Origin: Eledone cirrhosa
Lineage: Eukaryota
Assembly (NCBI GenBank): GCA_964016885.1
Contig: OZ024742.1
Location: 149,606,001-149,670,000, forward strand
Length of the DNA stretch: 64,000 bases
Direction: 5' to 3'
Below, one piece after another: positions 56,515 to 57,476 of this stretch; the first letter of the stretch is position 1, and the number at the start of each line of letters is the position of its first letter. Under the pieces are notes generated by a model that was given only the letters and a program-made list of their open reading frames with translations, made no database searches and had not been told where the DNA came from. Position numbers and translations under genes: made by a program.

Positions 56515-56743
56515 ATATATATATATATATATACATATATATATATATATATATATATATATATATATATATATATATATATATATGTATATATATATAT
56601 ATATATATATATATATATATATATATATATATATATATATATATATATACATATATATATATATATATATATACATATATATATATATATATATATATAT
56701 ATATATATATATATATATATATATACATATATATATATATATA
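56515..56743. repeat. (TA)n tract, continuing at 57477-57660 on the other side of the hammerhead element
   Basis: Directly visible. Other simple repeats at 37304-37341, 37880-37950, 41750-41825, 42476-42610, 42777-42830, 43946-44003 and 60212-60273. Confidence 0.95.
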
Positions 56744-57476
56744 TTTAGAAACACACAGATACATGCGGACACACACATATATACATGAATGCATCCGCAC
56801 CCAACTGTGAGTTAAGGGTGCCAACTTCACCGATGTTGCTCAATGAATGACTGGGACAGACCAATTCAGTTTGAACCAGACTGAACCAGTATCAGAGTTA
56901 AAAATACATTATGAAGAGAGAAGAAACATTTAGATATAATTAGTAATAAAATGTATCATACCTAAACTGTTCCTAAATTCCTCGACTACGTAGTTTCGTG
57001 GCATAAACAAAAACAATATATCAAAGATATAGAGTCCTTGCGAGGTCTGCCGACTTATCAAGAGGATACCTCATTTTACTAGTCTCAAGAACGCGTCTAC
57101 ACGACGTGAGAAAGAATCCCAAAAGGCGGAGGGGGAGACAGTCACGCGATATAACTGTCGAGAAACAGAGCTAAGCCTCTTATAACCACGAAGAAAATAC
57201 CACGGAGGCGGAGGGGGTATTCATATCGAGGCCGTAGAAGAGGTAGTGAAGAAGGCGAGAAGTATGAGTAATGGAAGCTTTCCAGTTGTCCCCACACTTC
57301 AAAGATTGCTCGACCAGAGGGAGTTATTAATATATTTAGAAACACACAGATACATGCGGACACACACATATATACATGAATGCATCCGCACCCAACTGTG
57401 AGTTAAGGGTGCCAACTTCACCGATGTTGCTCAATGAATGACTGGGACAGACCAATTCAGTTTGAACCAGACTGAA
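56741..57476 (-). mobile_element. Non-coding retrozyme/Penelope-like element with identical 145-bp terminal direct repeats
   Basis: 56741-56885 equals 57332-57476 (period 591 bp); flanked on both sides by (TA)n; CpG-rich; contains the hammerhead. Confidence 0.7.
56979..57066 (-). ncRNA. Type I hammerhead ribozyme fold (U3-A8 core variant)
   Basis: Minus strand reads UCCUC-UUGAUAA-GUCGGCA...UGCCAC-GAAAC-UACGUA-GUC/GAGGA. Stem I UCCUC/GAGGA; stem II GU(C)GGCA/UGCCAC; palindromic stem III; GUC cleavage triplet. Confidence 0.75.

What the first reader, a model, noticed from the sequence alone, without database searches (positions are those of the whole stretch)
56741..57476. Retrozyme-like 1.25-mer: a 591-bp non-coding unit with a hammerhead ribozyme, inserted in (TA)n
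Seen: identical 145-bp direct repeats 591 bp apart, no meaningful ORF, no obvious TG..CA LTR ends, (TA)n on both sides, and one hammerhead fold inside the unit. Known: Penelope-like elements and animal non-LTR retrozymes carry type I hammerheads, and retrozymes are processed into circular RNAs. Inference: a permuted copy slightly longer than one unit is what reverse transcription past the origin of a ~591-nt circular RNA would leave. Identical repeats imply a recent insertion, so this may be an active, possibly undescribed cephalopod circular-RNA retroelement mobilised by a Penelope RT. It is antisense to the host pre-mRNA and should not cleave it.
Basis: partly seen in the sequence, partly recalled or inferred. 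Interest (0 to 1): 0.85.

Follow-up and report, generated by a model that had tools for sequence, protein, structure and literature searches.

The report
Penelope-copied hammerhead retrozyme, two fixed starts
This is one copy of a young 591-base non-coding repeat, present at thousands of places in this animal genome, that carries a predicted self-cutting RNA motif and ends at one of two fixed points when it lands in TA microsatellites, a footprint likely left by a Penelope-type jumping-gene enzyme copying a probably circular RNA, which makes that long-proposed copying route testable.

Summary
In detail: exact 145-147-bp repeats 591 bp apart, (TA)n on both sides, and a type I hammerhead fold on the minus strand (U3:A8 core, cut predicted at 56984/56983). 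Rfam misses it. A 24-mer of the ribozyme occurs 7,300 times (about 3,600 loci, estimated). In 110 loci, 163 of 180 arms end at +80 or +245 nt after the cut site. Head-to-head insertions pair one end of each kind in 52 of 53 cases. A young autonomous Penelope family here follows the same rule (12 of 13). Passes within one insertion, both arms included, share a haplotype, and 283 passes cross the cut site without an indel. This fits a Penelope dimer rolling round one RNA circle. An uncut linear multimer is not excluded. Corrections: copies are not randomly permuted; this copy has one ribozyme, so it is probably a dead end; host taxon and the antisense claim are unverified. No RNA, cleavage or definite partner was shown. 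It is a new member of the animal non-LTR retrozymes. The scan reported the same two-armed pattern before, for other unit sizes here and in other genomes.

The parts
56739..57476 (-). Whole insertion, single arm, 1.25 units; RNA sense is the minus strand; 5' end at unit position 99 (position 1 = first base after the cut), 3' end at start site B (+245)
56741..57331 (-). One 591-nt unit, 41.6% GC; circular fold -174.5 kcal/mol versus -135.3 +/- 5.4 for 40 shuffles (z -7.3); plus strand z -1.3
56739..56885 (.). Direct repeat, left copy (147 bp, exact)
57330..57476 (.). Direct repeat, right copy (147 bp, exact)
56979..57066 (-). Type I hammerhead motif, U3:A8 core, long hairpin in loop II, palindromic stem III; predicted cut between 56984 and 56983
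56895..56910 (-). Start site A (+80, base 56904): 16-nt motif AATGTATTTTTAACTC; not used as an end in this copy; 2,489 junctions to (TA)n genome-wide
57321..57336 (-). Start site B (+245, base 57330; its second copy at 56739 is this insertion's 3' end): motif AATATATTAATAACTC; roughly 2,000 junctions genome-wide
56915..56983 (-). Predicted hairpin just 5' of site A (z -4.6); it pairs the 3' strand of hammerhead stem I and may hold the ribozyme off
57341..57404 (-). Predicted hairpin just 5' of site B (z -4.1); repeated at 56750-56813
56515..56744 (.). (TA)n target, left flank
57477..57649 (.). (TA)n target, right flank

Best explanation
This is a single-armed copy of a non-coding, hammerhead-bearing 591-nt repeat whose copies sit in (TA)n with 3' ends at two fixed sites, likely inserted by a Penelope-like reverse transcriptase/endonuclease working in trans on a probably circular RNA. 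Proposed cycle: loci with two ribozymes in register are transcribed (inferred). Paired hammerheads cut out a 591-nt monomer that is ligated to a circle (inferred from the class; untested). A Penelope protein, probably a dimer, binds two look-alike sites 165 nt apart on one RNA and nicks both strands of (TA)n. It primes one cDNA at +80 and the other at +245 (end positions shown; mechanism inferred). Both enzymes run round the circle and stop at scattered points (scatter shown). The two cDNAs are then joined head to head, or one is lost and a single arm remains, as here (inferred).
For: Ends: 163 of 180 arms in 110 loci end at +80 or +245 (69 of 82 in the 50 loci chosen by the ribozyme 24-mer alone), and 160 of those 163 run into (TA)n. 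An internal TATATAT site at +201-207 gives 0 junctions genome-wide against 2,489 for site A, so the ends are not set by TA homology alone. One 16-nt motif occurs only at the two sites. Pairing: 52 of 53 head-to-head pairs are A+B (21 of 22 in the unbiased set; one locus there is a duplicate). The young Neptune-like Penelope family of L111 (RT + GIY-YIG; 61 copies at 98-100% protein identity) has two such ends and 12 of 13 pairs use one of each. PMC11167929 shows two internal RT start sites and cleavage and extension of both strands in vitro. One template read repeatedly: in 120 loci, rare or private variants at positions read 3 or more times are in all passes (22), one pass (73) or some (7); 4 of those 7 lie in non-adjacent passes or opposite arms. 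27 rare or private variants are shared by all passes across both arms, against 1 that is multi-pass in one arm only. 40 multi-pass loci hold 31 different shared haplotypes. No indel within 6 nt of the cut site in 283 passes; stops near it 12 versus 10.9 expected. An older subfamily (448 of 599 columns identical) keeps the ribozyme core and uses equivalent ends.
Against: No RNA, cleavage or circle was observed. In the 2026 preprint 8 of 9 tested retrozyme dimers did not cleave in vitro, and in PMC11167929 unprocessed RNA was the main insertion substrate. Variants found in one pass only cannot be told from inherited ones; 15 recur in more than one locus against 9.1 expected (95% range 4-14), though no locus pair shares two. 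The sample is about 3% of loci, so power against a linear source is low. Arm-length hazard is uneven, not geometric. Two arms start exactly at position 1 (L152, L160), which hints at some cut linear templates. Covariation is weak: 97.4% of cells paired but only 1 pair with a change on both sides (225 of 500 shuffles as high). No Penelope with a terminal repeat homologous to the unit was found, so the partner is unidentified.
Confidence: 0.64

Rival explanations
1. Same Penelope two-site priming, but the template is an uncut linear multimeric transcript of a genomic array; arrays grow occasionally by DNA-level duplication, as the 2026 preprint proposes.
For: Explains fixed ends, clean junctions and arms longer than one unit. 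PMC11167929 found unprocessed RNA to be the dominant substrate. Shared one-pass variants are at the upper edge of chance (15 vs 4-14). In the circular fold both strands of stem I are paired elsewhere, so cleavage may be slow.
Against: 5' truncation shortens arrays at each generation, so an amplifying step is needed at least 31 times in the ancestry of 40 loci. Stepwise DNA duplication predicts variants shared by adjacent units: 3 of 102 rare or private variants at positions read 3 or more times. Arm length does not correlate with divergence between passes (rho -0.03, n=56).
Confidence: 0.22
2. Ribozyme-cut linear monomers are copied with repeated template jumps from 5' end to 3' end, giving multimers without a circle.
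For: Would also give one haplotype per array if the enzyme re-uses one molecule. Two arms begin exactly at position 1 and one at 591.
Against: 0 indels at the junction in 283 passes and no excess of stops there (12 vs 10.9); jumps usually leave scars (recalled).
Confidence: 0.08
3. The unit is only the terminal repeat of an autonomous Penelope that I did not sample, and copies are its truncated ends.
For: The end anatomy is that of Penelope elements; the 2026 preprint derives retrozymes from such repeats. Only the best 150 of 10,596 GIY-YIG candidates were scored.
Against: Arrays run to 11 head-to-tail units with no ORF (L081). In 145 loci of the family, tblastn found Penelope protein matches in 9; I read the three nearest (L157, L171, L196) and none has the unit as a terminal repeat after an endonuclease. 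40 GIY-YIG loci, and 30 loci of a Hydra-clade family, show no homology to the unit. A ribozyme pattern with shorter stem II found only 2 deletion variants of this unit.
Confidence: 0.04

Closest known systems
Metazoan non-LTR retrozymes (Cervera and de la Pena 2020, PMC7229834: passages, section 14 and Discussion read; Li, Clavereau and Pollet 2026, 10.64898/2026.07.22.740005: parts 1-3 of 5 read, supplements not seen)
   Same: Non-coding tandem unit, one type I hammerhead per unit, GC under 45%, no LTR/PBS/PPT, highly self-paired RNA, thousands of copies, co-existence with Penelope elements.
   Different: Unit 591 nt against ~170-400 nt for the circles in the 2020 paper, but within the 51-972 bp consensus range of the preprint. 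U3:A8 core. Dispersed two-armed insertions with two fixed 3' ends are not described in the parts I read. Circles and cleavage were shown for coral, mussel and axolotl, not here.
EN+ Penelope-like elements: Neptune and Hydra clades (Craig et al. 2021, PMC8557442: passages and section 11 read) and Anolis Poseidon PAc (Frangieh et al. 2024, PMC11167929: parts 1-2 of 4 read)
   Same: (TA)n targeting, 5' truncation, partial tandems, an inverted 5'-truncated copy, a 'tail' present at one end only, two internal RT start sites downstream of a hammerhead.
   Different: No ORF. The tail is 165 nt rather than 30-40 nt (68 nt in the L111 family here). In vitro PAc showed no difference in start site between strands, whereas here the two arms almost always use different sites.
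U3-A8 hammerhead variant of Schistosoma Cercyon Penelope elements (Cervera and de la Pena 2014, PMC4209133: passages read)
   Same: U3-A8 in place of C3-G8, G10.1-C11.1, palindromic stem III suited to dimeric cleavage. The L111 Penelope family here also has U3:A8.
   Different: Here the variant sits in a tandem non-coding unit with a 4-bp stem III and a long hairpin in loop II, not as a minimal motif in a terminal repeat.

Membership tests
Animal non-LTR retrozyme | Tandem repeat unit with one type I hammerhead per unit | tested here: met
   22 of 50 sampled loci have two in register; the window copy itself has one
Animal non-LTR retrozyme | Non-coding; no LTR-type fixed ends; low GC | tested here: met
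   PBS and PPT were not searched for separately, but 5' ends are scattered
Animal non-LTR retrozyme | Highly self-paired monomer | tested here: met
   predicted only: circular fold z -7.3 on the ribozyme strand, -1.3 on the other
Animal non-LTR retrozyme | Self-cleavage of the RNA | not testable with these tools
   motif complete and conserved; no assay
Animal non-LTR retrozyme | Expressed as circular RNA | not testable with these tools
   only contigs of runs of unknown kind were available
Penelope-mobilised non-autonomous element | Two internal 3' ends (tail), inverted 5'-truncated arm, (TA)n target | tested here: met
   same rule in an autonomous family
Penelope-mobilised non-autonomous element | Sequence homology to the terminal repeat of an autonomous partner | tested here: inconclusive
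   none in 40 GIY-YIG loci or 30 Hydra-family loci; most Penelope families of the genome were not sampled
Autonomous Penelope-like element | RT + GIY-YIG ORF | tested here: not met
TRIM or plant LTR retrozyme | Fixed ends on both sides, type III hammerhead, short TSD | tested here: not met
   5' ends scattered over the whole unit; type I motif; TSD unreadable inside (TA)n

The most novel reading that the evidence does not exclude
The insertions are a direct genomic record of double rolling-circle reverse transcription: a Penelope dimer holds two duplicated start motifs on one circular RNA, primes both strands of a TA break, one at each motif, and both enzymes roll past the ligated ribozyme junction. 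This would explain the Penelope 'tail' and inverted arm in general, and RNA editing or damage on one circle would be copied into every unit of an array.
Probability: 0.5. Interest if true: 0.75.

Novelty: new member of a known kind. Interest (0 to 1): 0.52.

Why it matters
How animal retrozymes are copied into DNA, and why Penelope elements leave tails and inverted arms, are stated as open in the papers read (PMC7229834 Discussion; the 2026 preprint; PMC8557442). This family gives thousands of young insertions with two sharp start sites, a strict one-site-per-arm rule and one haplotype per insertion, next to intact candidate enzymes in the same genome. That defines a small RNA substrate, a target and a prediction for an in vitro test. 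The element type is known; the value is the mechanistic handle.

Tried and rejected
Rfam: no hammerhead family at gathering score or E<=10; the hits listed are TA-driven. A 111-nt fold around the ribozyme was not better than shuffles (z -0.32); a 93-nt fold gave stems I and II (z -2.2). Sequencing runs: no RNA holder listed among six. Four runs laid were contigs of unknown kind; two hold the unit as one closed ~620-nt contig, which a tandem DNA repeat would also give, so it is no evidence. RNA-editing test: A>G makes up 17 of 58 all-pass rare or private variants against 8 of 153 one-pass ones (Fisher p 7e-6), but U>C is nearly as common among all-pass variants (15; A>G vs U>C p 0.07, private only 9 vs 4, p 0.025) and polarity is taken from the window copy, so this is suggestive only. 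The first structure count had a register slip and was redone. Summed arm length modulo 591 is weakly non-uniform in 48 unbiased pairs (p 0.023) but not in all 60 (p 0.19); four tests; not relied on. Substitutions at position 1 in 3 loci are matched by two other positions. Partner search: no homology to Neptune-like or Hydra-clade terminal repeats. L047 reads as nested insertion beside a Penelope end; L157 and L183 join the unit's 5' end to Penelope coding sequence but may be nested or deleted sites. Host gene not identified. Loci dropped from the variant counts: L043 (local duplicate), L018, L037, L139 (two insertions each), and arms under 60 nt or under 93% identity. Literature searches for this anatomy listed no paper describing it for retrozymes; subscription journals and Repbase/Dfam were not searchable.

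Full report
Observation. The two repeats are exact over 145 bp (147 with two shared AT bases), 591 bp apart, between two (TA)n tracts. No reading frame of note lies inside. A descriptor scan of both strands of the window found one hammerhead, on the minus strand: stem I UCCUC/GAGGA, core UUGAUAA, stem II with G10.1-C11.1 and a long loop hairpin, GAAA, palindromic stem III, and C17 at 56984. Rfam does not detect it. The U3:A8 core is a published variant in Schistosoma Penelope elements (PMC4209133, passages). The unit folds far better than shuffles on the ribozyme strand only (z -7.3 vs -1.3). In that fold both strands of stem I are paired elsewhere, which could keep a monomer from cutting itself (inference).

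Family. The genome holds 7,300 exact matches to a 24-mer of the ribozyme (control 0). The first 100 fall in 50 loci, so I estimate about 3,600 loci. Close copies are 99-100% identical and form head-to-tail arrays of up to 11 units. An older subfamily is identical at 448 of 599 columns and keeps the ribozyme core and stems I and III. Pairing is kept in 97.4% of cells, but mostly by invariance or one-sided changes; double changes are not above the shuffle control.

Ends. Numbering from the first base after the cut, I mapped arms in 50 loci chosen by the 24-mer and 60 chosen by a site-A junction. Of 180 arms, 98 end at about +80 and 65 at about +245, and 160 of those 163 run into (TA)n; 17 end elsewhere. 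Genome-wide there are 2,489 site-A junctions, 992 forward-strand site-B junctions (reverse count 1,813, inflated by double counting) and 0 at an internal TATATAT control site. One 16-nt motif occurs only at these two sites, each shortly after a strong predicted hairpin. 5' ends are scattered. Of 53 head-to-head insertions 52 have one A end and one B end; the exception is a pair of short old fragments. The window copy is a single B arm of 738 bp.

Penelope link. The genome is rich in GIY-YIG elements. The L111 family encodes RT plus GIY-YIG with the CX4CxxC linker that PMC8557442 gives for Neptune, is young, carries a U3:A8 hammerhead and ends in (TA)n at two sites 68 nt apart; 12 of 13 inverted pairs use one of each. 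A second young family has the RWK, DKT and CxCX5C marks of the Hydra clade. PMC11167929 shows in vitro that a Penelope protein cuts and extends both strands, starts at two internal sites that bound the genomic tail, and is predicted to be a dimer. So the unit behaves as a Penelope substrate with a 165-nt tail. Which family drives it is open: there is no homology to either terminal repeat. The bases before the start sites resemble the Neptune family, those after site A in the old subfamily resemble the Hydra family (by eye), and one locus of 110 (L183) joins an A arm head to head with a Hydra arm.

Template. In 120 loci (186 arms; four loci and short or diverged arms dropped), variants are mostly in all passes of an insertion or in one pass only. 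At positions read three or more times, rare or private variants are in all passes 22 times, in one 73 times and in some 7 times; 4 of the 7 lie in non-adjacent passes or opposite arms. 27 are shared across both arms. 40 multi-pass loci hold 31 haplotypes. No indel lies within 6 nt of the cut site in 283 passes, and stops there are as expected (12 vs 10.9). The simplest reading is one circular molecule read repeatedly by two enzymes. Against it: nothing here shows RNA; recurring one-pass variants are at the top of the chance range (15 vs 4-14); only about 3% of loci were sampled; two arms start exactly at position 1; and the papers report unprocessed RNA as the main Penelope substrate and no cleavage in 8 of 9 retrozyme dimers.

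Comparison and verdict. The element meets every sequence-level feature of animal non-LTR retrozymes (PMC7229834; 2026 preprint); cleavage and circles are untested. Both papers propose Penelope mobilisation without showing the route; the preprint favours array growth by unequal crossover, which the variant pattern here does not favour. My five literature searches listed no description of two-armed, two-start retrozyme insertions, within the limits of the library. Earlier notes of this scan report the same pattern for other unit sizes in this genome and in others; none matched this unit by sequence. I had the two ends and their pairing, before those look-ups. The window copy has one ribozyme and is probably a dead end; 22 of 50 sampled loci have two in register. 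Host taxon and host gene were not established. Verdict: new member of a known kind, with unusually clear mechanistic footprints; interest 0.52.

Noticed in passing
L183:1885-5545 (G000:C1, about 94494634-94498295): An A arm of the unit is joined head to head with a young Hydra-clade Penelope arm running from RT through the endonuclease to its own end in (TA)n; an 18-nt inverted piece of the unit sits at the joint. A mixed two-armed insertion or a nested one.
   Followed up: partly
L260-L268 and L183: The Hydra-clade family carries two related hammerheads about 1.45 kb apart in its 3' region; terminal 266 bp are 100% identical in many copies.
   Followed up: partly
L157:1613-3800: The unit's 5' end is joined in the same orientation to the RT region of another, frameshifted Penelope family.
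   Followed up: partly
L047:3109-3240: A B arm abuts a miniature two-armed insertion (about 30 + 95 nt) of the L111 Penelope family.
   Followed up: partly
L079, L144, L150, L167: Four B arms are 67-70 nt long and stop at the foot of the hairpin before site B.
   Followed up: no
window:57123-57141 and 57208-57218: Two GGCGGAGGGG boxes on the plus strand, kept in the older subfamily, 140-230 nt upstream of the cut site in RNA sense; possible internal promoter elements (GC-box resemblance recalled, untested).
   Followed up: no
L216/L217 (G000:C4:341452721-341453342): Two tandem units share a 26-nt deletion in the ribozyme's loop II hairpin; the shortened unit was multimerised as such.
   Followed up: no
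window:56439-56478: A perfect 18-bp inverted repeat with a short loop just left of the TA tract; origin unknown.
   Followed up: no
window:63862-63932: tRNA-like match (Rfam RF00005, 44.8 bits), possibly a tRNA-derived SINE head.
   Followed up: no
window:57878-57919: A 42-nt AG..GT-bounded stretch with an open frame on the plus strand may be a short exon; no homologue was sought.
   Followed up: no
window:16179-16934 and 2515-2997 (minus strand): Open frames that look like the C-terminal parts of LINE-type reverse transcriptases (by eye).
   Followed up: no
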